NCBI GenBank assembly: GCA_046732615.1 | Contig: JBKPNM010000090.1 | Coordinates: 1 to 47,582 of the forward strand | Length of the DNA: 47,582 nucleotides | DNA from: Actinomycetota bacterium | GTDB lineage: Bacteria > Actinomycetota > Thermoleophilia > Gaiellales > Gaiellaceae | Direction: 5' to 3' | Shown here: positions 18,471 through 36,974 of the stretch, piece after piece | How the letters are laid out: every line of letters starts with the position of its first letter | Position numbering within the stretch: position 1 is the stretch's first letter | The notes under the pieces: model-generated | What the model was told of the DNA's origin: nothing | Databases searched by the model: none | What the model saw: only the letters and a program-made list of their open reading frames with translations | Translations under genes and position numbers: made by a program

Positions 18471-18560
18471 GTGCACGAAGACGGCACGAAGCCGACGCAC
18501 TTTCGGCACGACTCTCGCGATACCGTGACTCCAGGGGGGCTCGCTCCCCCCGAGGGGGGC
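18471..18560 (+). promoter_or_regulatory. GGCAC-repeat promoter module, copy A
   Basis: GTGCAC 18471, CGGCAC 18482, degenerate 18493, CGGCAC 18504; 11-nt spacer; TACCGT 18521-18526; then GGGGGG-ctcgct-CCCCCC-ga-GGGGGG. Confidence 0.65.
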
Positions 18561-18621
18561 GCGGACCGGAAGGGCGCCGGCCACGGCACCGCAGACGTTG
18601 CGCGGACCGGCGCCGGGTTCC

Positions 18622-19398
18622 ATGAGCCGGCTGCACGTCCACGCCTGGGGCGACGACGAGGCGCCGGCGATCGTCTGCCTGCACGGCGTCACGGGCTGGG
18701 GAGGGCATTTCGCGGCGCTCGCCGCGGCTCTCCGGCGCACCCACCGCGTGCTCGCGCCCGACCTTCTCGGACACGGCTCCTCCCCGAAGGAACCGCCCTG
18801 GCGGCTCGGCGACCATCTCGACGCCGTCGAGCGCTCGGTCGGCCGGGCGCAGATCTGGCTCGGACACTCCTTCGGCGCCAGGATCGCGTTCGAGCACGCC
18901 GCGCGCAAGCCAGGCTCGGTCGAGCGGCTCGTGTTGCTCGACCCGGCGATCCTTCTCCCGCCGCATGTCGCGCTCTGGGCGGCCGAGAACGCCCGCGCCG
19001 AGCGGACGTATGGCTCGTTCGAGGACGCGGTCGACCGCCGCTACGAGGAGAGCCAGCTCTACGCGGCGCCCCGTGAGCTCGTCGAGAGCGAGCTCCGAGG
19101 ACACCTCGTCGAGGAGGCCGGCGTCTGGCGTTACCGATACACGCAGGCCTGTGTCGTCACCGCCTACTCGGAGCTCGCGACCGCTCCGGCACGGTTCGAT
19201 GCCGTCCGCGTGCCGACCTTGCTCGTTCTCGGCAACGACTCCTACCTGCCGTACGACCAGATGCTCGACGCCCATCGGGCGGCCCTCGGGGACCTGCTCG
19301 AGGTTGTCGTCGTCCCGGGGGGCCACACCGTGCTGTGGGACGCCCTCGCCGAGACGACCGAGGCCGTGACCGGGTTCGTCGCCCGCGCGAAAGCCTGA
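18622..19398 (+). CDS. Alpha/beta hydrolase
   Basis: CLHGV, APDLLGHG, GHSFG nucleophile elbow, LVLLDP, GGHTV. Confidence 0.9.
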   Translation: MSRLHVHAWGDDEAPAIVCLHGVTGWGGHFAALAAALRRTHRVLAPDLLGHGSSPKEPPWRLGDHLDAVERSVGRAQIWLGHSFGARIAFEHAARKPGSVERLVLLDPAILLPPHVALWAAENARAERTYGSFEDAVDRRYEESQLYAAPRELVESELRGHLVEEAGVWRYRYTQACVVTAYSELATAPARFDAVRVPTLLVLGNDSYLPYDQMLDAHRAALGDLLEVVVVPGGHTVLWDALAETTEAVTGFVARAKA

Positions 19399-19418
19399 CC
19401 GGCGCGCCCGTCCGCGCG

Positions 19419-20777
19419 CTACCCGACGTACTCGTCCGCGATCGAGAGGACGTCGTCGAGCACGGCGATCGCCGTGTCGACCTCCTCGCGCGTGACCGTC
19501 AGCGGCGGGACGGCCATGATCACGTTCCAATGCGTCATCAGGTAGACCCCCTGCTCGAGCGCCGCCTTCGCGAGACGTGAGACAGGCGCGACCGCCTCCC
19601 CCGAGGCGTTGTACGGCACGAGCATCTCCTTCGTCTCACGGTTCTTCACGAGCTCGACACCCCAGAAGCAGCCGAGGCCGCGCACGTCGCCGATCGACGG
19701 ATGGCGGTCGGCGAGGCCGTGCAGCGAGTCACCGAGGTAGCCGCCGACCGCGGCGGCGTTCTCGACGACGCCCTCCTCCTGGAACGCCTCGATCGACGCG
19801 ATCGCCGATGCGCACGCAAGCGGATGCCCGGCATACGTGAGGCCGCCGGGGAAGAACCGGCCGCGCACCTGGTCGACGATCTCGCCACGCGCGATCATCG
19901 CGCCGAGAGGCACGTAGCCCGAGTTGATGCCCTTCGCGACGGTGATGATGTCCGGCACGACGTCCCAGTGCTCGCATGCGAACCACCGCCCGGTGCGGCC
20001 GAAGCCGGCCATCACCTCGTCGAGGATGAGCAGGATCCCGTGCCGGTCGCAGACGTCGCGGATCGCGCGCAGGTAGCCGTCGGGCGGCGGAATGATCCCG
20101 TTCGTGCCGGTGACTGTCTCGAGAATGACGGCCGCGACGGTGTGTGCGCCCTCGTACTCGAGGATCTCTTCGAGGTGGGGCGCGCCGGTGCACACGGGGC
20201 ACGGATCGGGATGGCCGGCCGGGCAGCGATAGGTGTACGGATCGAACATGCGGACGACGCCCGGCATTCCGGGCTCGACCGCCCAGCGGCGCGGGTCGCC
20301 GGTGAGCGTGACGGCGCCGTTCGTCGCACCGTGGTACGACCGGTAGCGCGCGATGATCTTGTTCCTGCCCGTGACGAGCCGCGCGAGCTTGACGGCGTTC
20401 TCGTTCGCCTCGGCGCCGCCGTTCGTGAAGAACGAGACCGCGAGGTCGCCAGGCGTGACCTCCGCGAGCATCCGGCCGAGCCGCGAACGCGACTCGTTCG
20501 CCATCGGCGGGCCGATCGTGCAGAGCTGGTCGGCCTGGTCCTTGATCGCCTGGACGATCTTCGGGTGCTGGTGGCCGATGTTGACGTTGACGAGCTGCGA
20601 CGCGAAGTCGAGGTACCGCTTTCCGTCGTAGTCCCAGAAGTGACGCCCCTCGGCGCCGGCGACCGGAATTGGGGCGATCTGGTCCTGCACCGACCACGAG
20701 TAGAGGACGTACTCCTTCGCGTCCGCGACGATCTGGGCGCCAAGGTCCGGGTTCGCCTCGACAGTGGCCATGTCCAT
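19419..20777 (-). CDS. Class III PLP aminotransferase (omega-amino acid/taurine/beta-alanine type)
   Basis: YLDFASQLVNVNIGH, GGAEANENA, SYHG, LILDEVMAGFGRTG, VAKGINSG, GLTYAGHP. Confidence 0.92.
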   Translation of the reverse strand: MDMATVEANPDLGAQIVADAKEYVLYSWSVQDQIAPIPVAGAEGRHFWDYDGKRYLDFASQLVNVNIGHQHPKIVQAIKDQADQLCTIGPPMANESRSRLGRMLAEVTPGDLAVSFFTNGGAEANENAVKLARLVTGRNKIIARYRSYHGATNGAVTLTGDPRRWAVEPGMPGVVRMFDPYTYRCPAGHPDPCPVCTGAPHLEEILEYEGAHTVAAVILETVTGTNGIIPPPDGYLRAIRDVCDRHGILLILDEVMAGFGRTGRWFACEHWDVVPDIITVAKGINSGYVPLGAMIARGEIVDQVRGRFFPGGLTYAGHPLACASAIASIEAFQEEGVVENAAAVGGYLGDSLHGLADRHPSIGDVRGLGCFWGVELVKNRETKEMLVPYNASGEAVAPVSRLAKAALEQGVYLMTHWNVIMAVPPLTVTREEVDTAIAVLDDVLSIADEYVG

Positions 20778-20838
20778 GCTCCCTTCGCTTCGCTCGCTAC
20801 AGCGATCGTAGCCGTGCCGACGCCGCGCGGACGAGACC

Positions 20839-21006
20839 TCACTCGTCGCGAAACCCGCCCCGGAGCGCGGCTGCGGCGATGTCGACGAACGGGTCGAGCG
20901 GCGTCGGTGTGCCGAGGTTCTCGCGCGGGCCGCGCAGGACGTGCCCTCCCAGCCGCGCCTCGAAACGCACGCAGGCGCGCCGTTTCGATGTTCGACTCCG
21001 TCCCGC
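20839..21006 (-). pseudogene. Decayed internal fragment of an AAA-ATPase (LAL/LuxR-type) regulator
   Basis: RFEARLGGHVLRGPRENLGTPTPLDPFVDIAAA resembles the VLxGxCxxLxTPxPLGPFxD segment that follows Walker A in these regulators. Confidence 0.5.
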
Positions 21007-21060
21007 TCGGGTCCGACCCGGAGGGCTCGCGCGACGCCGGCAACGGCGTACGATCGGGTG

Positions 21061-21160
21061 ATGGCGATCGCAGCGCGGCCTCGTGCGACGCAGCTCCTCG
21101 AGCGAGCCGAGCCGCTCGCGTGTCTCCACGACGCGTACGCGGAGGCGCAACGGGGGGTAA
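21061..21160 (+). pseudogene. N-terminal remnant of an AAA-ATPase (LAL/LuxR-type) regulator
   Basis: MAIAARPRATQLLERAEPLACLHDAYAEAQRG (LLER..L..L......A..G pattern). TACGAT -10 lies 6 nt before the ATG; the frame degenerates before Walker A. Confidence 0.55.
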
Positions 21161-21314
21161 GCGCCGCGCCGGTAGCGGCTGTCTGCCGGCTGGTGCGCTG
21201 AGGTGCGGGCGGCGACGGCCGCCCGCACACCGTCGCGCCGCCGGCACGCCGGATTGTTGCCGGCCACCGGAGACTGGGTGCGCGCCGCTCGGGCCGAGGG
21301 TAATCCGCATTCAC

Positions 21315-21424
21315 TGGCACACATTCGGCACAAAGGTGGCACGCTTTCCCCGATACGGTGCTGCCCCGGGGGTGGGTGGGGGTTTGGGATGGGCCCAGCG
21401 GGACCCGCACAGCGCAACCCACCC
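21315..21424 (+). promoter_or_regulatory. GGCAC-repeat promoter module, copy B, with G-tract leader
   Basis: TGGCAC 21315, CGGCAC 21326, TGGCAC 21337; 11-nt spacer; TACGGT 21354-21359; GGGGG-T-GGG-T-GGGGG-TTT-GGG-AT-GGG at 21368-21393. Confidence 0.72.
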
Positions 21425-21458
21425 AGCCGCCGCGTTAGGACCGGTTAGGCTCACGATC

Positions 21459-22397
21459 GTGAGAGCCGCCGTGATCCGCGAGGTCGGGGCGCTGCCGGAG
21501 CCCGGCGACGCCGATGCGCCCGACGACGACACGATCGAGGTCGTCGCGGCACCTCTCAATCCCATCGACCTCGCCGTCTCCCGCGGCATTCTCGCGACCG
21601 GCCATCCACCGCTGCCGTACGTGCCGGGGTGCGAGGGCGTCGGCCGGACGGCCGACGGGCGCCTCGTCTGGCTCTTCGGCGGGACGCTCGGGCGCACGAC
21701 GAACGGGACGATGGCCGAGCGGGCCCCGATCGGCGACTCGTTCGCGATCGATGTCCCCGACGGAGCCGATCCCGCCGTCGCGGCGGGCCTCGGCATCGCA
21801 GGGCTCGCAGGCTGGCTGCCGCTCGCCTGGCGCGCACCGCTCCAGGGCGGCGAGAACGTGCTCGTCCTCGGCGCCACGGGCTCGGTCGGCCTCGTCGCCG
21901 TGCAGACGGCGAGGCTGCTCGGCGCGGCACGGGTCGTCGCGGTCGGACGAAGCGAGGCGGGGCTCGAGCGCGCGATGGAGCTCGGCGCAGACGCGACGGT
22001 ACGACTCGGCGGGGCGGATGACCTCGTTGCCGCCTTCAAGGACGCATTCGGCGGCGACGGCCCGAGCTACGTGTTCGACCCGCTCTGGGGCGAGCCGGCC
22101 GCGGCCGCGGTGCAAGCCGCGGTGCCGCGCGCGACCGTCGTCAATCTCGGCCAGTCGGCCGGGGCGACGTCCGAGCTCGCGTCGGCCCCTGTCCGCTTCA
22201 AGAGCCTCTCGATCCTCGGGCACACGAACTTCGCTCTCGCGAAAGACGAGCTCGCCGAGCACTACCGCCGGCTCGTCGGGCACGTCGTGGCCGGGGACAT
22301 CACGTTCGAGATCGAGCGCGTGCCGCTCGAGGAGGCAGCATCGGCGTGGCAGCGCCAGGCCGATGGCGCAGGGACGAAGCTCGTGCTCGTCCCCTAG
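21459..22397 (+). CDS. MDR-family NADPH:quinone reductase / zinc-binding dehydrogenase
   Basis: APLNPID, PYVPGCEGVG, VLVLGATGSVG, DPLWG, GTKLVLVP. It has its own TAGGCT -10 at 21446-21451, 7 nt before the GTG. Confidence 0.88.
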   Translation: MRAAVIREVGALPEPGDADAPDDDTIEVVAAPLNPIDLAVSRGILATGHPPLPYVPGCEGVGRTADGRLVWLFGGTLGRTTNGTMAERAPIGDSFAIDVPDGADPAVAAGLGIAGLAGWLPLAWRAPLQGGENVLVLGATGSVGLVAVQTARLLGAARVVAVGRSEAGLERAMELGADATVRLGGADDLVAAFKDAFGGDGPSYVFDPLWGEPAAAAVQAAVPRATVVNLGQSAGATSELASAPVRFKSLSILGHTNFALAKDELAEHYRRLVGHVVAGDITFEIERVPLEEAASAWQRQADGAGTKLVLVP

Positions 22398-22412
22398 GCG
22401 ATCGTCTCCGAC

Positions 22413-22820
22413 GTGCCCGAGCGGCCGTTCGCGATCCGTCCCGCCCCAGACGGGGACCGTATGCCGCTCGCGAGCTTGTTCGCCGCCGTCGCGGAGGAGC
22501 GGGACGGCATCGCAGCGGAGCCGACGGCAACGTCCTCGGCGGGATCTGGATCGACGGCCCGTTCTTCGGGTTCGGCGAGATCGGGATGCTGGTCGCGCGC
22601 GAAATGGCGAGGTCGCGGCGTCGGCTCGGCGCTCGTCGCTGCGGCGATCGAGTGGGGCCGGGAGCGCGGCTTGCACAAGCTGTCGCTCGGCGTCTTCCCG
22701 TACGACGACGCGGTGATCGCCCTGTACCGGAAGCACGGGTTCGAGGTCTAGGGCCGCCGCCGGAAGCACATTCGCCGCGCGAACGGCGAGCTGTGGGACC
22801 TGCTCGACGTGGGCCTCCTG
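22413..22820 (+). pseudogene. GNAT acetyltransferase, disrupted
   Basis: Frame switch after IAAEP (GEIGMLVA is in another frame), WRGRGVGSALV, AVIALYRKHGFEV, premature TAG at 22749-22751, then GRRRKHIRRANGELWDLLDVGLL continues. Confidence 0.8.
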
Positions 22821-22852
22821 CCCACCCGAGAGTACGCGCGATGCGGACTCCG

Positions 22853-23482
22853 TCAGGTGCGACGCTCGAGAACCTCTCGACGAGCCGTTCTGCGTCGACC
22901 TCCGCGTCGACGACGATCCATGCCCGCCGCGTCTCGTGGTGCAGGTTGAACCCGAACCGGGGTTTCCTCGGGCAGCCGTGCCGGGAGCCGCCGTGAGGTC
23001 TCCTCGAGTCGCTCGTACGGGACGTCCACCCGCGTGCGAGGCCCGAGGTCGAACGGCTCCGGCTGGCCGGGCGCCACCGCCACACCGGCGCGCGCGAGCG
23101 CGGCGGCGAGGGCGGCGCGGTCGACCCCCAGAGCGCGAAGCAGCGACGCACCCAGACCCGCCTTCCAGACCAGCGCCACGAGGTCGTCGTCCGGCGTCGG
23201 CTCCGCGCCGCGCGCGAGCGCAAGACCCTCGGCCCGGCCGGAAAGCCGGTAGACCGCGGGCGTCGACGTCGCGGCCTCGCTGCTCCGCCGTTCGACCGGC
23301 GGATCCGCGCGCTGCAGCCTCGCGAGGATCGTCTCCTCGAGCCGCTCCGCCGCCGCGCCGGCCCGGTGGAGCACGTCTCCGGCAGGCCCGTCGCCGCGGG
23401 CAAAGGCGACAAGGACGTGCTCTTCGCCGACCCAGTCGTGCCCGAGGCGGCGCGCCTCGCTCCACGCTCCGACGACGGACAT
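22853..23482 (-). pseudogene. Clp N-terminal (repeat) domain protein, probably frameshifted near the C-terminus
   Basis: EARRLGHDWVGEEHVLVA...L.RAG; second repeat ASLLRALGVDRAAL. A plausible continuation FGFNLHHETRRAWIVVD is in another frame. Confidence 0.6.
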
Positions 23483-23536
23483 CTGCGGCCATACCTAGAC
23501 GTCTCTCGGCACCAGAGAGGGTTAAGCTCGACCCCG

Positions 23537-24778
23537 ATGGCACTCGACCCCGGCCGTGTCGTCGCGCGCCTCCGCGAGCTTCGCTCGCTCACGGGGGACG
23601 AGAACGGCGAGCAGCGGGTCGCCTGGACGGAGACGTGGGCGAAAGGCCGCGCCTGGCTCGCCGAGTCGCTGTCCGACCTGCCGCTCGACGTCGAGCGCGA
23701 CCAGGCCGGCAACGACTGGTACACGTTGCGGGGCGAGTCGGACCGGGCAGTGCTGATCGGCGGCCACATGGACTCCGTCCCGAACGGCGGCTGGCTCGAC
23801 GGCTGCCTCAACGTGCTCGCCGGAGCCGAGGTGCTCCGCCGCATCGCCGACGACGGAACGCCGCCGGTGACCGTGCGCGTGGTCGACTGGGCAGACGAGG
23901 AGGGTGCGCGCTTCGGCCGCTCGCTCTTCGGCTCGTCGGCCGCCGCGGGGTCGATGTCCGATCAGGACGAGCTGCGGAAGCTCGTCGACCGCGACGGCGT
24001 CTCCTTGCCCGACGCGGTCGGCGCATACGGCGTCGACCTCGAGAGGGCCGTCGACGCGAACGCCCAGCTCGTGAGCGCTGCCGCCTACCTCGAGCTCCAC
24101 ATCGAGCAGGGCCCGGTGCTCGAGTCGCTCGACCTGCCGCTCGGCGTCGTGCTGGGAACGTTCGGCGTCGAGCGGTGGCGCGTCACCTGGACGGGCCAGG
24201 CGGCCCATGCCGGCTCGACGCCGATGGACAGGCGCCGCGACGCTCTCGCGGGCGCCGCGAAGCTGGCGCTCGCGATCCGCGACGTCGCGCGCGAGACCGG
24301 TGACGGCGCGGTCTGCACGTCGGGCGGCGTCGTGTGCCGGCCCGGCATCGTCACCTCGGTGGTCGAGACGGCCGAGCAGCTCCTCGATCAGCGCCACCTC
24401 GACGGCGGGAAGCTGGCGTCCATGCTCGCACGCGCCCAGGAGCTCACGCACGGCTTCGCCGAGGAGGAGCAGATCGACGTCGACTGGGACAAGATCTGGT
24501 CGATCGAGCCGATCCTCTTCGACCAGACGCTGATCGGCTTCGCCGACGACGCGATCCGCGAGGTCGCCGGAACCTCTCACCGGCTCCCGTCCGGCCCGCT
24601 CCACGACGCCGCGGAGGTGTCGCGAGCCGGCGTCCCCACCGTGATGCTCTTCGTCCAGAGCCTCCGCGGGCTCTCCCACACGAAGCTCGAGGATACGAGG
24701 CCCGAGCACCTCGAGCTGTCGGTTGCCGCGCTCGATCGGCTTGCCGCGAAGACGATCGACTGGATAGCCGCGGGATGA
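23537..24778 (+). CDS. Zn-dependent amidohydrolase (allantoate amidohydrolase / N-carbamoyl-amino-acid hydrolase / beta-ureidopropionase family)
   Basis: GGHMDSVPNGGWLDG, DEEGARF, ELHIEQGPVLE, HAGSTPM, SGPLHDA, GLSH. TAAGCT -10 lies just upstream of the ATG. Confidence 0.92.
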   Translation: MALDPGRVVARLRELRSLTGDENGEQRVAWTETWAKGRAWLAESLSDLPLDVERDQAGNDWYTLRGESDRAVLIGGHMDSVPNGGWLDGCLNVLAGAEVLRRIADDGTPPVTVRVVDWADEEGARFGRSLFGSSAAAGSMSDQDELRKLVDRDGVSLPDAVGAYGVDLERAVDANAQLVSAAAYLELHIEQGPVLESLDLPLGVVLGTFGVERWRVTWTGQAAHAGSTPMDRRRDALAGAAKLALAIRDVARETGDGAVCTSGGVVCRPGIVTSVVETAEQLLDQRHLDGGKLASMLARAQELTHGFAEEEQIDVDWDKIWSIEPILFDQTLIGFADDAIREVAGTSHRLPSGPLHDAAEVSRAGVPTVMLFVQSLRGLSHTKLEDTRPEHLELSVAALDRLAAKTIDWIAAG

Positions 24779-25206
24779 GGTACGAGCTGGCGGTCGAGAT
24801 CGCTCGGCCGCCGGCCGACGTCTACGCCTTCCTGGCGGATCCCACGCGCCTCGCCGAGTGGCAGGCGGACGTGCAGGAAGTTCGCGGCGCGCCAGGTGGG
24901 CCGCTCACGCCCGGCGCGACGTTCACGGAGGTGCGGGCGTTCCTCGGGAAGCGCGTCGAGTCGACGCTCGAGGCCGTTGTCGCGGAGCCGGGCCGCGAGC
25001 TGACGCTCGAGACCGTCTCCGGCCCGGCGCGCGTCTCGATCCGACACCTCCTCGAGGCGAGCGAGGGCGGAACGGCACTCCGGGTGGTCGCCGAAGCGGA
25101 CCCTGGGAAGCTCCTCGGGCTCGGCGGGCCGTTCGTCCGGCGCGCGGCAGAACGCCGCGCCCGTGCGGACTTCGATCGGCTCAAGGCGGTGCTGGAGACG
25201 GGCTGA
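24775..25206 (+). CDS. SRPBCC (polyketide cyclase-like) family protein
   Basis: MRYELAVEIARPPADVYAFLADP...W...DFDRLKAVLE; ATGA-coupled to the amidohydrolase. Confidence 0.85.
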   Translation: MRYELAVEIARPPADVYAFLADPTRLAEWQADVQEVRGAPGGPLTPGATFTEVRAFLGKRVESTLEAVVAEPGRELTLETVSGPARVSIRHLLEASEGGTALRVVAEADPGKLLGLGGPFVRRAAERRARADFDRLKAVLETG

Positions 25207-25235
25207 GCGCCGTTCGCGAGTAGGCTCGTCGCCGC

Positions 25236-26408: not shown

Positions 26409-26995
26409 TCACCCCCGCCTGGCAGCTCCACACCGAACGCCTCGTCCTCCGACCGTTCGAGCCGCGCGACCTCGAGCCCCTCCATGCGATCCACTCGGAC
26501 GAGGGCGTCGTGCGCTGGCTCTACAACGACGCGCGGAGCTTCGCGGAGACGCGCGAGCTGCTCGAGCGGAAGATCGCCGGCTCTGCCGTGGCGGCCGGAG
26601 GGCGACTGCCTCAGTGCCGCCGTCACGCGCCGCGAGAGCGACGTGCTCGTCGGAGACGTCTCGCTGCTCTGGGCGAGTGAGACCCACCGCCAGGGCGAGC
26701 TCGGGTTCGTGTTCCACCCGCTCCACCAGGGGCGCGGCTACGCCACCGAGGCAGCGCGGCCGATCCTCGCCTTCGCGTTCGAGGAGCTCGCCCTCCACCG
26801 CGTGATCGGGCGCCTCGAGCCGCGCAACGTCGGCTCCGCCCGCGTGCTGGAGAAGCTCGGGATGCGCCGCGAGGCGCATCTCGTCGAGAGCGAGGGGGTC
26901 AAGGGCGAATGGCAGAGCGAGCTGTCTACGCCGTCCTGGCGGGCGAGTGGAGCGCCACTTCCGCTGGCGGGCAGCGGGACGACGGCGGATACTGA
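26405..26995 (+). pseudogene. RimJ/RimL-type GNAT acetyltransferase with two frameshifts
   Basis: LHTERLVLRPF in the first frame; shift near 26597 to GELGFVFHP..QGRGYATEAA...NVGSARVLEKLGM; shift near 26922 back to VYAVLAGEW. Confidence 0.8.
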
Positions 26996-28882: not shown

Positions 28883-28897
28883 CGGGCGCGAAGGAAA

Positions 28898-28970
28898 TGG
28901 CGAGGGCCGGACTTGAACCGGCGACACCACGGTTTTCAGCCGTGTGCTCTACCAACTGAGCTACCTCGCC
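28898..28970 (-). tRNA. tRNA-Phe (GAA)
   Basis: GGCGAGGTAGCTCAGTTGGTAGAGCACACGGCTGAAAACCGTGGTGTCGCCGGTTCAAGTCCGGCCCTCGCCA: acceptor GGCGAGG/CCTCGCC, anticodon loop CT-GAA-AA, GGTTCAA T-loop. CCA is not encoded; TACACT -10 at 28981-28986. Confidence 0.97.
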
Positions 28971-29056
28971 CCGGCAGGTGAGTGTAGCCGTGTCCATAGC
29001 GCGTCGCGGCCGCCGTGCGGAGCGACCGCCGGCCCGGCCGGGTAGCCTCCGCTGCC

Positions 29057-29965: not shown

Positions 29966-29989
29966 AACCCCGGAGAGCCTTACGCGAGG

Positions 29990-30031
29990 GAAGAGCGTTC
30001 GGGCCGGTTGACCGCGCCGCGAACGCTCTTC
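29990..30031. terminator. Hairpin between convergent genes (putative bidirectional terminator)
   Basis: GAAGAGCGTTCG...CGAACGCTCTTC, perfect 12-bp stem. Confidence 0.65.
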
Positions 30032-30044
30032 GTTGCCGCTGACC

Positions 30045-30863
30045 CTATCGCACGGCGGCGGCAGGGCCAAGCACGCGGATCCGAAGCGGGCGGCCGGATG
30101 CAGCGTGCAGCATCGACGCCGCGTTTCCGCGGTTGATCGCGATCGACATGTTGCGGTAGCTGTCCTCGTAGAGGATGACGTCGCCCGGACGGGCGTCCGC
30201 GAACGTGCGGGCCATGACGGCGAAGTAGCGCTCACCCGCGAGCTCCAACTCGATGCGAGAGCCGGGAACCACACCGGCGTGCTCCGCGTCGTCGCGCGTC
30301 AAGTTGAGGGCGATGTTGCCGAAACTGTCAACGTAGAGCATGGTCGCCTCGATGCGGTCTTCCGAGAACGACGGTCGCGGAAGGTCGAGCCGGACGAGCG
30401 CGTCGGGGTCGAGCGGTGGCCCGAGCTCGTCCAACGGCACGCCGTTCGCGAGATGCGCCGCGGCCGGGGCGAAGAGATCGCGCCCGTGGAAGGTGCGCGA
30501 GATCGACTCGAGCGCGTACTCCGGGTTGACGAGCTCGCGAGCACGCGTGATGCCCGCGCGCTCGGCTGCGGGGAGCAGCAAGCCGTTGTCCGGACCCACG
30601 AACATCCGCCCATCGGCGTCCTCGAGCGCGACCGGGCGGCGCACGCCTCCGACACCAGGGTCGACGACGGCGAGGTGGACGCCCACGGGCATGTACGGGA
30701 GGGTGCTCGAAAGGACGAGGGCGCCTTGGAGCACCTGGGTCGGAGGGATGCCGTGCGTCACGTCGATCACGCGGGCGTCGGGGGCGATGCGCGCGATCAC
30801 GCCGTGACATGTGCCGACGAAGTCGTCCTGGAGGCCGAAGTCCGTCAGAAAGCAAATGACCAC
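30045..30863 (-). CDS. SAM hydroxide adenosyltransferase (DUF62; chlorinase/fluorinase family)
   Basis: LTDFG, IDVTHGI, VVDPGVG..RR, GPDNGLL, TFHGRDLFAP, VDSFGN, INRGNA. Confidence 0.92.
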   Translation of the reverse strand: MVICFLTDFGLQDDFVGTCHGVIARIAPDARVIDVTHGIPPTQVLQGALVLSSTLPYMPVGVHLAVVDPGVGGVRRPVALEDADGRMFVGPDNGLLLPAAERAGITRARELVNPEYALESISRTFHGRDLFAPAAAHLANGVPLDELGPPLDPDALVRLDLPRPSFSEDRIEATMLYVDSFGNIALNLTRDDAEHAGVVPGSRIELELAGERYFAVMARTFADARPGDVILYEDSYRNMSIAINRGNAASMLHAASGRPLRIRVLGPAAAVR

Positions 30864-30872
30864 TCGCCGAGT

Positions 30873-31508
30873 CTACGACGCCGGTGACGCGCGCTCGACC
30901 GCCTCGACGAGCCCGGGAACGTCGTGCGTCGCCGCTTCGGCCACGACCGTCAAGCCGTGCGCGACCGCCTCGCGAGTGGTCTCGGGCCCGATCGACACGG
31001 TCGGGGCCGGAGCGGCCACAGCCGCATAGGCTCGCGCGGCCGACGGCGAGGCAAGAACGACGAAGTCGCACTCCGGCCAGCTCGCAGGCTCGAGCGCGAC
31101 GGTGTGGTAGAGGACGATCACGTCGGCGCCCAGCGTCTCCGGCAGCAGGCGACGGGCTCCCTCCGCGCCGGCGAAGAGCACACGGCCGGGCGGCGTCGGG
31201 AGAGCCGCGAGAAGGCCCTCCTGCGTCGACGTCTCGGCGATCACGTCCGCGTCGCCGAACGCGACCGCGGTTGCGCGGCCGATCGCTGCGACCCTCGTCG
31301 GCGTGCCTCGCATCCTCCGTTTCAGCTCGCGGGCTCCCGCGGGACTCGTGAGGACGACCCAGTCGTACCCGGTGACATCGATCGGCTCGTCGCCGAGCGG
31401 CTCGATCGCGATCAGCGGGACATGGGCGACCTCGTGCCCGGCGCCGCGGAGGCTCTCCACCAGCTCGTGTTCGCGGCCCGCGGGACGGGTGACGACGATT
31501 CGCGCCAC
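30873..31508 (-). CDS. hemD: Uroporphyrinogen-III synthase
   Basis: IVVTRP, PLIAIEP, WVVLTSPAG, AIGRATA, LASPSA, SIGPET; in the hem cluster. Confidence 0.88.
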   Translation of the reverse strand: MARIVVTRPAGREHELVESLRGAGHEVAHVPLIAIEPLGDEPIDVTGYDWVVLTSPAGARELKRRMRGTPTRVAAIGRATAVAFGDADVIAETSTQEGLLAALPTPPGRVLFAGAEGARRLLPETLGADVIVLYHTVALEPASWPECDFVVLASPSAARAYAAVAAPAPTVSIGPETTREAVAHGLTVVAEAATHDVPGLVEAVERASPAS

Positions 31509-31517
31509 GTTTCTCGT

Positions 31518-31607
31518 CCCGTCCCTAGCCCCCACCCGCCCACGGGGACACGGACGGTAGCGAGGGAGATGTGACATGACTGTGCCAAGTTTGTCCCGGT
31601 TGTGCGA
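31518..31607 (-). promoter_or_regulatory. GGCAC-repeat promoter module, copy D, with G-tract leader upstream of hemD
   Basis: On the minus strand: CGGGAC (31593-98), TGGCAC (31582-87), TGTCAC (31571-76); 11-nt spacer; TACCGT (31554-59); GGG-C-GGG-T-GGGGG-CTA-GGG-AC-GGG (31518-31541). Confidence 0.72.
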
Positions 31608-31766
31608 TCAGGGCGCCGAAGGCGGTGACCGCGGAGGCGACGGGGGAGGCGAGTGCGGAGCCGCTCGCGCCGACCGGCGGGAGAAGGGAGTCACGTCGGC
31701 CTAGTGTCAGCGCAGAACAGAATGCAGCGGCCGCACCGCCCGCTGGAAGCGTGTCCGTCGGCGCCT

Positions 31767-32591
31767 TCACCGCGCCAGCGCGGCAAGCTCGCGCCCGAGC
31801 GCGTGCGGATCCGAGCCCTGCCGACGCTCGAGCCAGCTGCCGTCCTCCGCGGCGACGAGCCCGGTGAGCACGGCGCCGTCGTGATGCGCCGCGACGGGCG
31901 CGAGGCAGCCGCCGCCGACCGCAGCGACGCACGCGCGCTCGGCCTCGACGCGGCGGCGAGTCTCGCGATCGTCCACCTTCTCGACGAGATGCTCGTCTCC
32001 GGCGCGCACCTGGAGCGCCAAGGCGCCCTGGCCCGCCTCGGGGAGCATCACGTCCGGCTCGAGCCGCGCGCCGATCTCGCTCCCGAGCCCGAGCCGGTCG
32101 AGCCCGCACGCCGCGAGCACGATGGCGTCGAGGCCACGCTCGCCCCGCTTCCGAAGGCGCGTGTCGATGTTGCCGCGAAGCGGCTCGACGGACAGCGTGG
32201 TATCCAGTGCAAGGAGCTGCGCGCGGCGGCGCGCCGATGCGGTCCCGATCCGCATCCCGGGTCGAAGCTCGGCCGCCCCGCAGAGTGCGTCGCGCGGGTC
32301 CTCGCGGCGTGGGTACGCGCCGACCGTGAGTCCCTCGGCGTCCGTCGAGGTCATGTCCTTGGCCGAGTGGACGGCGACGTCGATCCTGCCGGCGAGCAGC
32401 GCCTCCTCCAGCTCCTTCACGAAGACGCCGCGACTCCCGATCTCGCCGAACGGCCGCGTCCGGTCGCGGTCACCCGCCGTCGTGATCGGAACCAACGCGA
32501 TCTCGACGCGGGGCCGCCGCAGCGCCTCGCTGGCGCGCTCGGCCTGCGTGAGCGCGAGCCTACTGCCGCGCGACCCGACGCGAAGCAGCAC
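31767..32591 (-). CDS. hemC: Hydroxymethylbilane synthase (porphobilinogen deaminase)
   Basis: GSRGSRLALTQ, GVFVKELEEALL, AVHSAKD, REDPRD, GTASARR, RGNIDTRL, GQGALA, GGGCLAP. Confidence 0.95.
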   Translation of the reverse strand: MLLRVGSRGSRLALTQAERASEALRRPRVEIALVPITTAGDRDRTRPFGEIGSRGVFVKELEEALLAGRIDVAVHSAKDMTSTDAEGLTVGAYPRREDPRDALCGAAELRPGMRIGTASARRRAQLLALDTTLSVEPLRGNIDTRLRKRGERGLDAIVLAACGLDRLGLGSEIGARLEPDVMLPEAGQGALALQVRAGDEHLVEKVDDRETRRRVEAERACVAAVGGGCLAPVAAHHDGAVLTGLVAAEDGSWLERRQGSDPHALGRELAALAR

Positions 32592-32717
32592 GGCAGCGGC
32601 GGGTCCCCTGCGTCGCGGGAGCTCCGCAGAGCCGTGCGCCGCGAGGACGGATCCGGACGAACGCCGTCGGCACCACGAGCGGCAGCGGACGTCCGCGCGC
32701 GACGTCGACCGGCATCG

Positions 32718-33983
32718 TCACGCCTCGTCCTCGCCCAGCCCGAACAGATGACGCACGACCTCAGCATAGATCAGCCCGTCCGGCGTCATCGCCGCCTCCT
32801 TCATGCGAACCGTCGGGCCGTGCAGGAGCTTGTTCACGATCTGGGCGGTAACCGTGTCGACCATCGCTCGCTCGCTCTCGGACAGCCGACCGAGACGCTT
32901 TTCGATGCGGGAAAGCTCGGCCGCGCGAATGTCCTCGGCCTGGGCGCGAAGTGACGCAATCGCCGGGACGACCGCGAGGGACGCCTGCCAGGCGTGGAAG
33001 CGCTCCGCCTCCGCCGCGACGATACGCTCGGCAGCGACCGCCTCCGTACGCCGACCGTCCAATGAGGCGGAGACAACCGCCTCGAGGTCGTCGACGTCGT
33101 AGACGAAGCAACCGTCGATCGAGGCGAGGGACGGGTCGACATCGCGCGGCACCGCCAGGTCCACGAAGAGCACGGGCTTGCCGCGGCGCGCCCGCAGCGC
33201 CGAGCCGAGTGCCTCCAGCGTCAGGACGAATCCCGGCGAGCTGGTCGACGAGACGACGACGTCCGCGCCGTCGAGCACGGCGGCGACGTCCTCGAGCCCG
33301 ACCGCGCGAGCGCCGAGAGACGAGGCGAGTCGCTCGGCACGGTCGAGGCTTCGATTGACGACCGCCGCAACCGTCGCGCCGCGCGAGCGGAGGTTCCGCG
33401 CCGTGAGCTCGCTCGTGCGACCGGCGCCGACGAGGACGACGTTGTGCCCCTCGAGGCCCTCGAAGACCTGCTGCGCGAGCGCCGCCGCGGCCGCCGGCAC
33501 CGACGCCGGGCTCTCGCCGATCGCCGTCTCGACACGTGCGCGGCGACCGGCGTGGAGCGCCATCCGGAACGTCCGGTCGAGCACCGGCCCGGGCGCCCCG
33601 GCCTCGAACGCGTCGCGCACCTGGCCGAGAATCTCGCCCTCGCCGGGGACGAGCGAGTCCAGCCCTGCCGCGACGCGGAAGAGGTGCAGGGCCGCCGACT
33701 CGTCCGCGAGGCGGTACGCGAGCGGGGCGAGGGCTGCGGCATTCTGGCCCGCGAGAGCGAGGAGCGCGTCGTCGGCCGCCCGCGCGACGTGATCGTGGTC
33801 GTCGGCCGCGAGGTAGAGCTCGGTGCGGTTGCACGTCGACAGGACGACCGCCTCCTGTGCCTGCGCGCCGTCTCGTGCCAGTCGACGGGCGAGCGCCGAC
33901 GCCGCTTCGAGATCGATCGCGACCCGCTCGCGCAGCTCGACCGACGCGGTGTGGTGCGAGATCCCTGCGAGCGCGAGCTTCAC
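32718..33983 (-). CDS. hemA: Glutamyl-tRNA reductase
   Basis: GISHHTASVELRE, STCNRTE, HLFRVAAGLDS..GEGEILGQV, VGAG, DLAVPRD, NKLLHGPT. Confidence 0.95.
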   Translation of the reverse strand: MKLALAGISHHTASVELRERVAIDLEAASALARRLARDGAQAQEAVVLSTCNRTELYLAADDHDHVARAADDALLALAGQNAAALAPLAYRLADESAALHLFRVAAGLDSLVPGEGEILGQVRDAFEAGAPGPVLDRTFRMALHAGRRARVETAIGESPASVPAAAAALAQQVFEGLEGHNVVLVGAGRTSELTARNLRSRGATVAAVVNRSLDRAERLASSLGARAVGLEDVAAVLDGADVVVSSTSSPGFVLTLEALGSALRARRGKPVLFVDLAVPRDVDPSLASIDGCFVYDVDDLEAVVSASLDGRRTEAVAAERIVAAEAERFHAWQASLAVVPAIASLRAQAEDIRAAELSRIEKRLGRLSESERAMVDTVTAQIVNKLLHGPTVRMKEAAMTPDGLIYAEVVRHLFGLGEDEA

Positions 33984-34753
33984 GATGCGAAGTGGGTCAG
34001 CGGTAGGACGAAGGCGACAAGGGTGAAGCCGGCGACGAGCGACCACGCGAGCCGGCGGCCCTGGAGGCCGGTTTCCCGCCGGAGGATCAGGGCCGTGGCG
34101 TACACGCCCCAGATCACGGCGGTGACCGTCATCGCGGCGTCCAGCTCGCCCGAGTCGAGACGGGTCAGCCCGACGACGATCCCGCCGCTGAGCAACAGGA
34201 GGCCGACGAGCGCCACGCGCGACGCGAGTCGGTCGAGCGCTTCGAGCGACGGCAGCCGCAGGCGCAGAAGACCCGTGTCGCGATGCTTGAGCCGGCGTTC
34301 CTCGTAGAGGTACAGGATCGCCATGGCCGCGGCGACCGTGAAGCTCGCGAACGCGGCGAGCATGAGGCCGACGTGGGCGTCGAGCGTCCAGCCGCCGCCG
34401 TCGCGCTCGTCGACCGCCGTGCCGCCGCCCGCCCACGACAGCACGAGCAGCGCGGTGGCGAACGGCATCACGAGGAGGCCGATCAGCCGGTAGCGGGGCT
34501 TGCACCCCCAGACGAGATATCCGGCGACGACGAGCCACGAGAGCAGGTTCAGCGCGCCGGCCCAGGTTCCCCATGGGAAGCCGTCCGTCGAGACCGCCTG
34601 GGCGACGAGCAGGGCGGTCTGGGCAAGCCAGCCGATGCGGACGCCCCAGATCCCGAGGCGGCCGAACCGGCCCGGCCCGTGCAGCTCTCCGGCATACGCG
34701 ACCGCGGCGAGGCCGTACGCGACGAGCGTCGGCCAGACGAGCAGCTCAGCCAT
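33980..34753 (-). CDS. Cytochrome c assembly family membrane protein (CcsA/HemX-like)
   Basis: Multi-TM, H in DAHVGL, ERRLK...RLPSLEALD, GLQGRR; directly upstream of hemA. Confidence 0.8.
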   Translation of the reverse strand: MAELLVWPTLVAYGLAAVAYAGELHGPGRFGRLGIWGVRIGWLAQTALLVAQAVSTDGFPWGTWAGALNLLSWLVVAGYLVWGCKPRYRLIGLLVMPFATALLVLSWAGGGTAVDERDGGGWTLDAHVGLMLAAFASFTVAAAMAILYLYEERRLKHRDTGLLRLRLPSLEALDRLASRVALVGLLLLSGGIVVGLTRLDSGELDAAMTVTAVIWGVYATALILRRETGLQGRRLAWSLVAGFTLVAFVLPLTHFAS

Positions 34754-34910
34754 CGGCTTCGTCGGCGGCTCGTCCGTCCGTCAGGCGAACGAGCTCGGCC
34801 GTCTCCCGCTCGAGGCGCGACAGCTTCGCCGCGATGATCGCTGCCCACACCAGGACGAAGACGAGGAACACGCCGTACGCCGCCGCGACGTACTTCTCGC
34901 CGGAGCTCAT
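34746..34910 (-). CDS. Small CcmD-like membrane protein
   Basis: KYVAAAYGV + one TM + charged tail, immediately after ccmC. Confidence 0.7.
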   Translation of the reverse strand: MSSGEKYVAAAYGVFLVFVLVWAAIIAAKLSRLERETAELVRLTDGRAADEADG

Positions 34911-35593
34911 CGCGCCAGCGCCTCGCGCAGCGCGCGAATGTTCAGGTCGGTTCGCTTCCCGGCGAGCTCGGTGCGGTACATCACGTAGGCGAGCAACGTG
35001 ATCGCCGCCCATGCGCAGCAGAAGGCGGCGAACATCTCGCCCGTCATCTGCGGGCCGTCGCGCGTGAACACCGTCGGATGGATGAAGTCGTTCGCGAGCC
35101 GGATCGCGAAGAAGCTGACGGGGATCAGTGCGACGCCGAACAGCGCGTAGACGGCAGAGATCCGCTCACGGCGCGGGCCGGCCTCGATCGAGAACCGCAA
35201 CATGAAGTACGCGCAGTAGAAGAGAAACAGGACGAGGAACAGCACGAGCTGGTTCGAGCTCCACGTCCACCAGACCCCCCACGACGCCTTCGCCCAGATC
35301 GACCCCGTGATGAGCGTCAACGCGCCGAAGATCGTACCCTGGTGGATGCCGGTGTAGCTCTCGAGGTCGTAGCGCTCGCCGCGCGTCCACAGCAGCCGGA
35401 GCGCCTTCCAGGCGCCGAGGCCAAAACCCGCGTACGCCGTCAGCGCGATCGGGACGTGGACGTAGAAGATCTTCTGGGAGAGGCCCTGGTCCGCGTCCTC
35501 TGGCGCGACGAAGAAGATCATCGCGACTGCGACGCCCGCGAGGACGACGGCGAGGCCCGCGAGGGCCGCGAGGGGAGGCTTCGTGATGCTCAT
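34907..35593 (-). CDS. ccmC: Heme exporter protein C
   Basis: QKIFYVHVP, LITGSIWAKASWGVWWTW (WWD domain), second His in FIHP. Confidence 0.88.
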   Translation of the reverse strand: MSITKPPLAALAGLAVVLAGVAVAMIFFVAPEDADQGLSQKIFYVHVPIALTAYAGFGLGAWKALRLLWTRGERYDLESYTGIHQGTIFGALTLITGSIWAKASWGVWWTWSSNQLVLFLVLFLFYCAYFMLRFSIEAGPRRERISAVYALFGVALIPVSFFAIRLANDFIHPTVFTRDGPQMTGEMFAAFCCAWAAITLLAYVMYRTELAGKRTDLNIRALREALAR

Positions 35594-35603
35594 CGGGTGA
35601 CGT

Positions 35604-36245
35604 TCACTCGGTGACGACGTACTCGAACGCGGCCCACGAAAGTATCGCGAACACGGCGTCGTAGAGGCCGAGGAACGCGAGGTACGTGCCAGGCTCGGGC
35701 GAGATGCTCGAGCCGACGCCGCCGACGACGAGCGGTATCGCAAGCGGGAGGAAGAGCAGCGGAAGCAGCACTTCGCGACCCCGTGCCGCGGCCGCCATCG
35801 CCGAGACGAGCGAGCCGACGGCGCAGAGCCCGATCGACGCGAGCGCGACGCCGGCGAGCGCGGGTCCGTCGAGCGGCGCGAAGAACAGCGCGAACGCGGG
35901 AAGGGCGACCACCTCGGCCGCACCCAGGAACGCCAGCGCGGCAAGCGTCTTCGCGAGCCAGATCGAGCTGCGGTCGGACGCGGCGAGCACGAGCCCGTCG
36001 AGCGCGCCTGCCTCGGTCTCCGGCGTCCACGCGCGGCCGAGCCCGAGCAGCGAGGTGAAGACGAGCGCGACCCAGAGGAGGCCGTATGCCGCGTCGTCGC
36101 CCGTGCCGCCGGGCAGCGCGAAGTGGAAGACGACGAGGGTCGCGACGACGAAGAGCACCATCGCGGGCAGGGTGTCTCGTGCACGGAGCTCGAGGCGGAG
36201 ATCCTTCCGCGCGAGCGCGGCGACGTCGGCGAGGTAAGCCGTCAT
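35604..36245 (-). CDS. ccmB: Heme exporter protein B
   Basis: KDLRLELR, E.E.GALDGL, LAK, REVLLPLLFLPLAIP. Confidence 0.92.
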   Translation of the reverse strand: MTAYLADVAALARKDLRLELRARDTLPAMVLFVVATLVVFHFALPGGTGDDAAYGLLWVALVFTSLLGLGRAWTPETEAGALDGLVLAASDRSSIWLAKTLAALAFLGAAEVVALPAFALFFAPLDGPALAGVALASIGLCAVGSLVSAMAAAARGREVLLPLLFLPLAIPLVVGGVGSSISPEPGTYLAFLGLYDAVFAILSWAAFEYVVTE

Positions 36246-36844
36246 GCTCGCGCCAGCTCGAGACCCGCCGGAGCGAGCGACGCCAGCCGGTCGGGATCGT
36301 GCGTCGAGACGACCAGCGTGTGGCTGCCTGCGAGCGCCGCGAGCTCGTCGTCGAGGAGGGTCGCTCCCTCTGCGTCGAGCGCGGAATGGGGCTCGTCGAG
36401 GACGAGCAGGGAGGGGTCGTGAAGAAGCGCGCGGCAGAGCGCGAGGCGCTGGGTCATGCCGCGGGAGTACGAGGAGACGCGCTGGTGACGCGCCTCCCAG
36501 AGACCGAAGCGCTCGAGCAGCATGCCGATGCGCTCGCGGCGCTCGTCGACGCGGTAGAGGCGTCCGTAGAGGTCGAGGTTCTCGAGGGCGGTGAGCTCGC
36601 GGTAGACGAGCGGCTCGTGCCCGACGAGCCCGATGCGCGCCCGGTGGACCGCAACCTCGAGCGAGCCCCGCGTTGGCGCCGCCAAGCCGGCGACGAGCCG
36701 AAGGAGGGTCGTCTTGCCGGAGCCGTTCGGCCCCGTCACGAGGAGTGTGCCGCCCTCGTGCAGCTCGAAGCCGACGTCGCGGAACACGGGACGAGCGCCG
36801 TAGCGCTTCTCGAGGCCGCGAGCCCGGACGACGGGCTCAGCCAC
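36242..36844 (-). CDS. ccmA: Heme ABC exporter ATP-binding protein
   Basis: GPNGSGKTT, LTALENL, YSRGMTQR, LVLDEP, STH; upstream of ccmB. Confidence 0.88.
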   Translation of the reverse strand: MAEPVVRARGLEKRYGARPVFRDVGFELHEGGTLLVTGPNGSGKTTLLRLVAGLAAPTRGSLEVAVHRARIGLVGHEPLVYRELTALENLDLYGRLYRVDERRERIGMLLERFGLWEARHQRVSSYSRGMTQRLALCRALLHDPSLLVLDEPHSALDAEGATLLDDELAALAGSHTLVVSTHDPDRLASLAPAGLELARA

Positions 36845-36850
36845 GCGACT

Positions 36851-36974
36851 CCCATCGCGACCGCCTTCTCCCCAACTGCCCCAACTGCCCCCAGGGGCAC
36901 CGCGGGTGCCCTGATGCCACGCTATCGAGGAAACTGTGCCGCATGGGTGCCGAGATCGTGCCGGAAGTGTGACG
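36851..36974 (-). promoter_or_regulatory. GGCAC-repeat promoter module, copy C, upstream of ccmA
   Basis: On the minus strand: CGTCAC (36969-74), CGGCAC (36958-63), CGGCAC (36947-52), CGGCAC (36936-41); 11-nt spacer; TAGCGT (36919-24); GGGCACC-cgc-GGTGCCC hairpin; GGGGG-CAGTT-GGGG-CAGTT-GGGG. Confidence 0.75.

What the first reader, a model, noticed from the sequence alone, without database searches (positions are those of the whole stretch)
18471..36974. Four dispersed copies of one promoter module: 11-bp-phased YGGCAC repeats + fixed 11-nt spacer + TASSGT -10 + G-rich leader
Seen in sequence, aligned by eye. A(+18471): GTGCAC-N5-CGGCAC-N5-(cgacgc)-N5-CGGCAC-gactctcgcga-TACCGT. B(+21315): TGGCAC-N5-CGGCAC-N5-TGGCAC-gctttccccga-TACGGT. 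C(-36974): CGTCAC-N5-CGGCAC-N5-CGGCAC-N5-CGGCAC-agtttcctcga-TAGCGT. D(-31598): CGGGAC-N5-TGGCAC-N5-TGTCAC-atctccctcgc-TACCGT. In all four the last repeat ends exactly 11 nt before the hexamer, the spacer is pyrimidine-rich and ends CG(A/C), and G-runs start 7-12 nt downstream. Established knowledge: 11-bp direct repeats overlapping the -35 region at a fixed distance from the -10 are the binding architecture of winged-helix activators (OmpR/PhoB family such as PhoP, GlnR, MtrA; SARP/AfsR). Inference: this is a regulon, or a spreading promoter/sRNA cassette, that I do not recognise. Four copies in under 20 kb suggests many genome-wide. Two copies point at heme/cytochrome c genes (ccmA operon, hemD); the others point at a hydrolase and a quinone reductase.
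Basis: partly seen in the sequence, partly recalled or inferred. Interest (0 to 1): 0.85.

Follow-up and report, generated by a model that had tools for sequence, protein, structure and literature searches.

The report
Gene-less copies of a competence promoter
The four repeats are real copies of the promoter pattern that this soil actinobacterium (Gaiella) places in front of its DNA-uptake and recombination genes, likely switched on by a newly identified regulator, but these four are likely gene-less units predicted to make short G-rich RNAs rather than to control the heme genes beside them.

Summary
Confirmed. The window is from Gaiella. The pattern (CGGCAC/CGTSAC units every 11 bp, 11 nt, TAnnnT) occurs at 36 sites in the genome. 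Nine sit at genes, mostly with a leaderless start 6-8 nt after the hexamer: comEA(-comEC), comM(-dprA), comF, rnhB-yraN, the thpR-recA-recX run, three small unknown ORFs and an orphan OmpR-family regulator. That regulator's promoter carries in-phase units in 8 of 8 Gaiellaceae, and it co-occurs with the arrays across Thermoleophilia (24 of 37 against 2 of 15 comEA/comM regions). This reads as a competence regulon, not a heme regulon. The window's four copies belong to 26 gene-less units of about 95 bp whose best-conserved part is the first 30 transcribed, G-rich bases (5' hairpin plus G-run in A and C; G-quadruplex-type tracts in B and D). Copies C and D are inserts at junctions that are tight in genomes lacking them, kept in 15 and 18 of 20 relatives; 9 of 26 units face an opposite-strand gene. 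Transcription, binding and the RNA's job are untested; a multicopy decoy RNA is my best guess. The RR at 44075-44776 is not supported, and the Flp pilin promoter lacks the pattern.

The parts
18471..18509 (+). Copy A: four 11-bp-phased units (GTGCAC, CGGCAC, cgacgc, CGGCAC), predicted activator sites
18521..18526 (+). Copy A: -10 hexamer TACCGT; start predicted at 18533 from the 6-nt spacing seen at the leaderless targets
18533..18561 (+). Copy A: H-family leader (G6/C6 hairpin from the predicted +1, then a G6 run); lies between the peroxiredoxin and hydrolase genes; also found there in G009, G015, G271
21315..21342 (+). Copy B: three phased units (TGGCAC, CGGCAC, TGGCAC)
21354..21359 (+). Copy B: -10 hexamer TACGGT; start predicted near 21366
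21366..21396 (+). Copy B: Q-family leader with five G-tracts; also found before qor in G265
21446..21461 (+). Separate leaderless-type promoter of qor (TAGGCT, 7 nt, GTG at 21459), so qor need not depend on copy B
31571..31598 (-). Copy D: three phased units (CGGGAC, TGGCAC, TGTCAC) in the hemC-hemD junction
31554..31559 (-). Copy D: -10 hexamer TACCGT; start predicted at 31547
31514..31547 (-). Copy D: Q-family leader with five G-tracts; present in 18 of 20 relatives, absent where hemC and hemD abut
36936..36974 (-). Copy C: four phased units (CGTCAC, CGGCAC x3) in the ubiA-family gene-ccmA junction
36919..36924 (-). Copy C: -10 hexamer TAGCGT; start predicted at 36912
36872..36912 (-). Copy C: H-family leader (20-nt hairpin from the predicted +1, then tandem G-tract units); intact in 15 of 20 relatives, decayed in 1

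Best explanation
The repeat-plus-hexamer pattern marks the promoters of comEA, comM, comF, rnhB-yraN and recA in Gaiella and is likely the switch of its natural-competence regulon, likely read by an orphan OmpR-family regulator (G000:C7:1544-2221), while the four window copies are likely gene-less units predicted to make short G-rich RNAs that would act as a multicopy decoy. Inferred mechanism: three to five regulator protomers bind head-to-tail on the 11-bp units over the -35 region and recruit sigma-A RNA polymerase, which starts 7 nt after the hexamer. At nine sites this makes mostly leaderless mRNAs, including the regulator's own (a feedback loop). At 26 other sites a roughly 95-bp unit (array, -10, about 30 conserved bases) has been copied into intergenic spaces without regard to the neighbours. 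Its RNA starts with a 5' hairpin (H family; A, C) or G-quadruplex-type tracts (Q family; B, D) and presents G-tracts, the one feature shared by the four leader families, so I propose that it titrates a G-tract-binding factor in competent cells. My odds per step: competence-type regulon 0.85; this regulator 0.7; units independent of neighbouring genes 0.8; trans-acting decoy rather than another job 0.4.
For: Shown: sites precede comM, comEA, comF, rnhB-yraN and lie just ahead of thpR-recA-recX; dprA and comEC follow the C-terminal halves of comM and comEA on contigs C22 and C133 (joining across the contig breaks is inferred). The same promoters stand before comEA (3 loci), comF, comM, thpR and two of the small ORFs in other Gaiellaceae among 28 loci examined, and in G278, G271, G264. 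Regulator: found in 30 of 40 class genomes, in none of 8 from families f7, f8, f10 nor in G031, which also gave no comEA or comM match; no match in 186 genomes outside the class; near-invariant recognition helix TRT(L/V)D(S/T)HASRLR; phased arrays upstream of comEA/comM in 24 of 37 regions from genomes with it and 2 of 15 without; its own promoter ranks 1st of 467 leaderless-type promoters for units at the -50/-39 phase, followed by rnhB, comM and a radA-like gene, and keeps that phase in 8 of 8 Gaiellaceae. Gene-less units: 9 of 26 face an opposite-strand gene and 9 of the other 17 downstream genes have their own TAnnnT; 49 of 54 T-type metagenome copies with an identified next gene face the opposite strand (76 loci, many redundant); conservation is confined to about -65..+30 and peaks in the transcribed 30 nt (0.87-0.94 against 0.45-0.5 in the flanks); near-identical duplicates share only about 95 bp; 31 of 31 distinct H segments fold a hairpin from +1 with different inner stems, and 7 of 14 tetraloops are GNRA; at the hemC-hemD site 18 of 19 copies keep the G-tracts while single-base loops vary among T, C and A; no replichore bias (13 of 24).
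Against: No transcript, start site, binding or transformation data; the two sequencing runs laid were uninformative. The Flp pilin promoter has no array in 4 of 4 genomes where it was found, and ssb, recN and ruvB have none, so the regulon lacks the pilus that uptake needs. Family f2 has the regulator but 0 of 6 regions with arrays, f9 only 2 of 6; G103 has the comF site but no regulator match at 1e-28; kin are not independent. The regulator's promoter scores only -6.6 with the full matrix because its two proximal units are replaced by a conserved AAAGGACATCT box. No common terminator or 3' end was found. Formal covariation of the H hairpin is modest (77.9% paired against 76.0 shuffled, and a one-column slide does as well), and the hairpin set and anchors were selected by patterns that favour the result. 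No partner for the RNA was found: no CsrA or 6C RNA match in the 88%-complete genome, and the 90-aa regulon protein has no significant fold match. Many T-type copies have arrays scoring below zero.
Confidence: 0.5

Rival explanations
1. The gene-less units act on DNA in cis, like Neisseria garP-G4: competence-induced transcription of a G-rich start forms an R-loop and a G-quadruplex that opens or stalls the chromosome and loads RecA, giving about 26 dispersed recombination entry points or cassette landing pads.
For: The RNA strand is G-rich in all families; the Q family has short-loop G3 tracts right after +1; RNase HII, YraN, ComM and RecA are in the same regulon; one duplicated pair in G278 flanks a two-gene accessory cassette as direct repeats. 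garP passages read in PMC13463697.
Against: No strand bias relative to replication (13 of 24), whereas garP is strand-dependent; C and D sit in stable heme-operon junctions with no recognised accessory gene in the relatives examined; ViennaRNA puts a quadruplex in only 55 of 131 H and 1 of 7 T leaders, and copy B can pair with a downstream C-rich stretch instead; a hairpin starting at +1 fits a released RNA better.
Confidence: 0.17
2. The units are selfish or near-neutral hitch-hikers: a 95-bp promoter cassette that spreads by local duplication during transformation and is kept as decoy sites for the regulator or by its own drive; the RNA has no host function.
For: Sharp-edged recent duplicates 1 kb apart (93% and 89% identical); clustering in G271 (7 gaps under 20 kb against 3.2 expected, p 0.02); patchy presence at orthologous sites; in family f9, AbiEi/DUF559 genes appear to use the same promoter type (best match just before the start in 4 of 16 loci).
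Against: The transcribed 30 nt are better conserved than the regulator sites across genomes whose HemA is only 72-91% identical; one T-type leader is identical in another family of the class; no DUF559 gene in G000 and few in the family (9 of 120); no terminal repeats or linked transposase seen.
Confidence: 0.2
3. The units are cis-acting internal or antisense promoters that re-tune housekeeping operons (ccm, hemD, murD, alaS, mnmA, era, miaA, efp) in competent cells; this includes the first reader's reading for the four window genes.
For: 19 of 25 tallied units lie between co-directional genes (which also tallies the peptide-cluster site and omits one mis-flagged unit); positions are kept for long periods; copies A, C and D face genes without their own TAnnnT.
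Against: Orientation is mixed, the same leader family faces unrelated genes on either strand, the distance to the next gene varies widely among orthologues, and read-through would not need four conserved G-rich leader families.
Confidence: 0.13

Closest known systems
GlnR / AfsQ1 / MtrA-type promoters of Actinomycetota (OmpR/PhoB family)
   Same: Pentamers at 11-bp period over the -35 region: GlnR a-site gTnAc with four protomers head-to-tail and no Asp phosphorylation (PMC10235972, passages); AfsQ1 GTnAC-n6-GTnAC (PMC6988585, one passage). The candidate is likewise an orphan with a degenerate receiver in Gaiellaceae.
   Different: Unit is GGCAC/GTSAC with no GaAAC b-site; targets are competence genes, not glnA/amtB (scores -6.0, -8.8); the protein misses the MtrA and PhoB cut-offs and has its own recognition helix; found only in Thermoleophilia among genomes searched.
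CiaR-dependent csRNAs of streptococci
   Same: A response regulator with a hexamer-N5-hexamer site at a fixed distance from the -10 drives both genes and several dispersed intergenic small RNAs linked to competence (PMC3091779, passages; PMC4507080, listing abstract).
   Different: 2-6 csRNAs with terminators against 26 units in four families without a recognised terminator; G-rich; spacer 11 against 10 nt; here the same sites precede the uptake genes themselves.
PeSL promoter-stem-loop cassettes of T4-type phages
   Same: Small repeated promoter-plus-stem-loop units; recombination between neighbours can move genes between them (PMC2839356, abstract and passages).
   Different: PeSL stem-loops are terminators and the cassettes lie in variable regions of a phage; these units are chromosomal, activator-type, have the hairpin after +1, and mostly sit between core genes.
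Neisseria gonorrhoeae garP-G4 at pilE
   Same: A promoter next to a G-quadruplex-forming sequence, G-rich transcript, recombination context (PMC13463697, passages).
   Different: Single, strand-dependent locus tied to pilin variation; here many copies, no strand bias, only one of four families is a clear short-loop G3 type.
Late-competence regulons (ComX cin-box, ComK, CRP-S/Sxy)
   Same: Same core targets: comEA-comEC, comF, dprA, comM, recA (families recalled; ComX and ComK also described in passages of PMC8467076 and PMC12849477).
   Different: Predicted reader is an OmpR-family activator with sigma-A-type, leaderless promoters; pilus genes and ssb not found in the set.

Membership tests
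OmpR/PhoB-family activated promoter | Direct repeats at 11-bp period overlapping -35 at a fixed distance from a sigma-70-type -10 | tested here: met
   period 11 scores best in most array-positive regions
OmpR/PhoB-family activated promoter | A cognate receiver + Trans_reg_C protein that binds the repeats | tested here: inconclusive
   Candidate has both domains, in-phase units in its promoter and co-occurs; binding not testable
GlnR regulon | gTnAc-n6-GaAAC boxes before glnA/amtB | tested here: not met
   No b-site in the consensus; glnA-like and amtB-like genes, picked by short recalled signatures, score -6.0 and -8.8
   Candidate scores 109.6 against the cut-off 300 for NF040689; the other four receiver-type OmpR proteins of G000 were not scanned against this model
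Late-competence regulon | Shared site before comEA-comEC, comF, dprA/comM, recA | tested here: met
Late-competence regulon | Shared site before the uptake-pilus genes | tested here: not met
   No array before flp in 4 of 4 genomes; one array of unclear target in a type IV pilus region of G264; the region is unassembled in G000
Late-competence regulon | Induction coincides with DNA uptake | not testable with these tools
   needs a culture
csRNA-like regulator-dependent sRNAs | Intergenic regulator-dependent promoter without a cognate ORF | tested here: met
csRNA-like regulator-dependent sRNAs | Defined transcript ending at an intrinsic terminator | tested here: inconclusive
   No conserved downstream hairpin; no usable RNA reads; the terminator-scan tool was not run
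Any Rfam family (including 6C RNA) | Covariance-model match | tested here: not met
   Only tRNA in the window; one chance-level hit in six loci at E up to 1; no 6C RNA match
CsrB/RsmY/RsmZ sponges | CsrA/RsmA in the genome | tested here: not met
   PF02599 not found in the 88%-complete genome
PeSL cassettes | Stem-loop acts as terminator and flanking repeats release mini-circles | not testable with these tools
   One cassette-flanking pair seen; the hairpin lies after +1
garP-G4 | Short-loop G3 tracts right after the promoter | tested here: met
   Q family only, copies B and D
garP-G4 | Fixed strand relative to replication | tested here: not met
   13 of 24 co-directional in G271, terminus assumed opposite dnaA, all families pooled

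The most novel reading that the evidence does not exclude
Gaiella has turned its competence promoter into a self-spreading 95-bp unit, so that when the cell takes up DNA one regulator fires about 26 dispersed G-rich micro-transcripts that open the chromosome (R-loop/G-quadruplex) as programmed recombination entry points and cassette landing pads: a genome-wide, competence-gated version of Neisseria garP-G4 combined with PeSL-like shuffling.
Probability: 0.15. Interest if true: 0.92.

Novelty: new variant of a known kind. Interest (0 to 1): 0.68.

Why it matters
Passages of PMC12849477 (2026) state that the regulatory cascade of competence in Micrococcus luteus is unidentified and that control in Actinomycetota is poorly understood. 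This finding names a site, a target set and a specific candidate activator for an abundant soil class, so competence there becomes testable by expressing one gene or footprinting one protein. The unusual part is that gene-less copies of the promoter outnumber the coding targets about three to one and keep a conserved 30-base G-rich start. Whether they are decoy RNAs, recombination triggers or parasites of the regulon, I found no description in the searches made (open-access library only).

Tried and rejected
Heme/ccm regulon: rejected. RR at 44075-44776 and the other OmpR/BTAD regulators: no site upstream (-3 to -21 bits); this alone does not exclude them as binders. Sigma-54 promoter (TGGCAC, recalled): no TTGC five bases after the last unit in the four copies. 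Relics of DUF559/AbiEi genes: none in G000, 9 of 120 family genomes have a match, none of the 10 such loci scanned has the promoter or a leader, and no mobile gene was recognised after the leaders (annotation by similarity to G000 proteins only, output of 31 partly cut). Short peptides: no conserved start or frame in the H, Q and S leaders. CsrA and 6C RNA partners: not found. Ribosome decoy: pairing with the real Gaiella 16S tail beats shuffles only in the S family (median z -1.7; H -0.2, Q +0.4). Flp leader as base-pairing target: only copy A ranks in the top 5% of 500 leaders, probably through its own self-complementarity. PC4/PUR fold for the 90-aa protein: good model (pLDDT 92) but best Z 4.6 and no Foldseek match under E 0.001; Borrelia Pur-alpha appears at E 0.47; inconclusive. 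Searches (first protein; seventh protein) read that ORF in the wrong frame and are void; redone; the Atlas gave no valid answer. Y1 transposase link: the gene at C115 has its own flanking repeats and no module. Phages: no exact match in viral contigs. Expression: two runs with small shares, contigs only, no conclusion. Supplements of papers were not read.


Full report
Observation. The four copies are present exactly as described and far above chance (4 against a shuffled mean of 0.06). The window is contig C90 of a 2.76-Mb, 71% G+C, 88%-complete assembly. The stretch lies about 20-30 kb from dnaA in five relatives. Rfam finds only a tRNA in the window.

Genome-wide set. A matrix from the four copies alone recovers many more sites; iteration gives 27 over 20 bits with shuffle maxima of 12-16, and leader searches and an array-only scan add copies with longer spacing. 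The curated set is 36. The consensus is (CGGCACGAAGT)n with period 11, a proximal unit CGTSAC, 11 nt and TAnnnT.

Coding targets. Seven sites have a start codon 6-7 nt after the hexamer, which fixes the likely start site: comM, comEA, comF, rnhB-yraN and ORFs of 68, 90 and 95 aa without a convincing family match. An eighth lies at the cinA/thpR boundary ahead of recA-recX. The C-terminal halves of comM and comEA start contigs C22 and C133 and are followed by dprA and comEC. The same promoters recur in other Gaiellaceae; a two-mismatch pattern hits 14 of 18 family genomes and 6 of 102 others in the class, with 6 reversed-pattern control hits in all. This is the core late-competence set (established knowledge). 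Against a complete regulon: flp, ssb, recN and ruvB have no site.

Regulator. The ninth gene site is at an orphan OmpR-family gene, G000:C7:1544-2221. Its receiver lacks the phospho-acceptor Asp in 8 of 8 Gaiellaceae; orthologues in families f3-f5 keep it and mostly lie beside a kinase-like gene. The recognition helix differs from the other OmpR proteins of G000. It was found in 30 of 40 class genomes, in none of f7, f8, f10, and in none of 186 genomes outside the class. Arrays upstream of comEA/comM are significant in 24 of 37 regions with it and 2 of 15 without, with f2 (0 of 6) the exception (related genomes are not independent). Its promoter has two good units at exactly -50 and -39, then a conserved AAAGGACATCT box in place of the third; it ranks first of 467 leaderless-type promoters at that phase and the layout is kept in 8 of 8 Gaiellaceae, though it scores low with the full matrix. 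GlnR is the structural precedent: an orphan OmpR protein, four protomers head-to-tail around -35 (PMC10235972, passages). Binding is inferred. The window RR at 44075-44776 is part of an RR-kinase-HtrA cluster with no site upstream.

The window copies. They belong to 26 units with no ORF of their own: 11 H (hairpin + G-run; A, C), 5 Q (five G-tracts; B, D), 5 S (GTGGGGAGGAGG start) and 5 T (GGGTGGTGG start). The Q and T cores occur almost only in these units. Nine face an opposite-strand gene; 9 of the other 17 downstream genes, qor among them, have their own TAnnnT (genome baseline 444 of 2335, measured more strictly). In 20 relatives chosen from the 45 searched, by HemA similarity and contig size, D is present in 18 and absent in the two where hemC and hemD abut; C is intact in 15, decayed in 1, absent in 3 where the genes abut, and not in the stretch in 1. 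Conservation covers about -65 to +30 and is highest in the transcribed bases (the anchor pattern inflates this in part). Duplicates in G278 share only that unit, one pair flanking a two-gene cassette. Units cluster weakly and show no replichore bias in G271. H hairpins begin at +1, vary in the inner stem and favour GNRA loops, but alignment-based covariation is modest. Q units keep their G-tracts and vary only in non-G loops. Several H copies, C included, repeat the G-tract unit in tandem.

How it likely works. Shown: sites, targets, conservation, unit boundaries. Inferred: activation by the orphan regulator with feedback on its own gene; transcription from +7; a short G-rich RNA from each gene-less unit. 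For the RNA I favour a trans-acting multicopy decoy for a G-tract-binding factor (0.4 within that step), because position, orientation and neighbours do not matter while an RNA-type 5' structure and G-tracts do. Cis R-loop/G4 recombination triggers, selfish spread and operon re-tuning remain open. No partner was identified.

Known systems. It works like GlnR/AfsQ1-type activation and like the CiaR-csRNA layout (PMC3091779, passages), resembles PeSL cassettes (PMC2839356) and, for Q units, garP-G4 (PMC13463697), but fails or cannot be given a defining test for each. Searches found no description for Gaiella or Thermoleophilia; M. luteus papers (PMC8467076, PMC12849477; passages) report no such site in the passages seen. 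Two earlier notes of this scan reached compatible partial readings in other genomes; they are not independent support.

Verdict. Real and conserved: a likely competence regulon with a named candidate regulator, plus an unexplained family of gene-less promoter-RNA units to which the four window copies belong. New variant of a known kind; interest 0.68.

Noticed in passing
G000:C28:9471-15091 (L322): Thiazole/oxazole-modified peptide cluster (50-aa Cys-rich precursor, SagD/YcaO, SagB, exporter-like genes) whose upstream region copies the regulator's own layout, including the AAAGGACATCT box, with a weak -10: possibly a competence-linked bacteriocin.
   Followed up: partly
L083/L240, L229, L231, L234 (family f9 genomes G047, G053, G035): Dispersed AbiEi/DUF559 endonuclease-type genes have the best promoter match of their locus just before the start in 4 of 16 loci: selfish genes may use the competence switch.
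   Followed up: partly
L046:986-1255 (G000:C161): 90-aa regulon protein, over 1000 homologues, no Pfam family; confident beta-sheet plus two-helix model with no significant structural match.
   Followed up: yes
L044:1097-1381 and L044:6861-7064 (G000:C113); L384 (G278): Leaderless ORFs of 95 and 68 aa under the same promoter, kept in relatives, and a 133-aa ORF behind a weaker site in G278; functions unknown.
   Followed up: partly
L508, L510, L513, L519, about 110 nt before flp: Conserved structured leader of the Flp pilin gene with G-run/C-run hairpins resembling copy A and a CCTCC stretch that could mask the ribosome site; no Rfam match.
   Followed up: partly
S-family units (e.g. L047, L031) and the regulator promoter (L321:1490-1500): A GGACAT(GTCC) element recurs 15-40 nt downstream of S leaders, in no fixed reading frame, and a GGACATCT box sits in the regulator promoter: possibly a second protein site.
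   Followed up: no
L371:2012-3016 (G278:C10): Two-gene cassette (95-aa ORF and DUF6036 nucleotidyltransferase) after a groEL-like gene, flanked by direct copies of an H unit.
   Followed up: partly
G000:C115:12300-12900: Y1 (RAYT-like, label recalled) transposase gene flanked by GTGCC-N-GGCAC-type hairpins; two more fragments at C171 and C68.
   Followed up: no
G000:C10:8792-8870: A probable 27th, degenerate H unit; its orthologue in G271 is intact.
   Followed up: partly
window 41412-44776: RR-kinase-HtrA cluster on the minus strand, an envelope-stress-type layout.
   Followed up: no
window 28898-28970: tRNA-Phe(GAA) on the minus strand.
   Followed up: no
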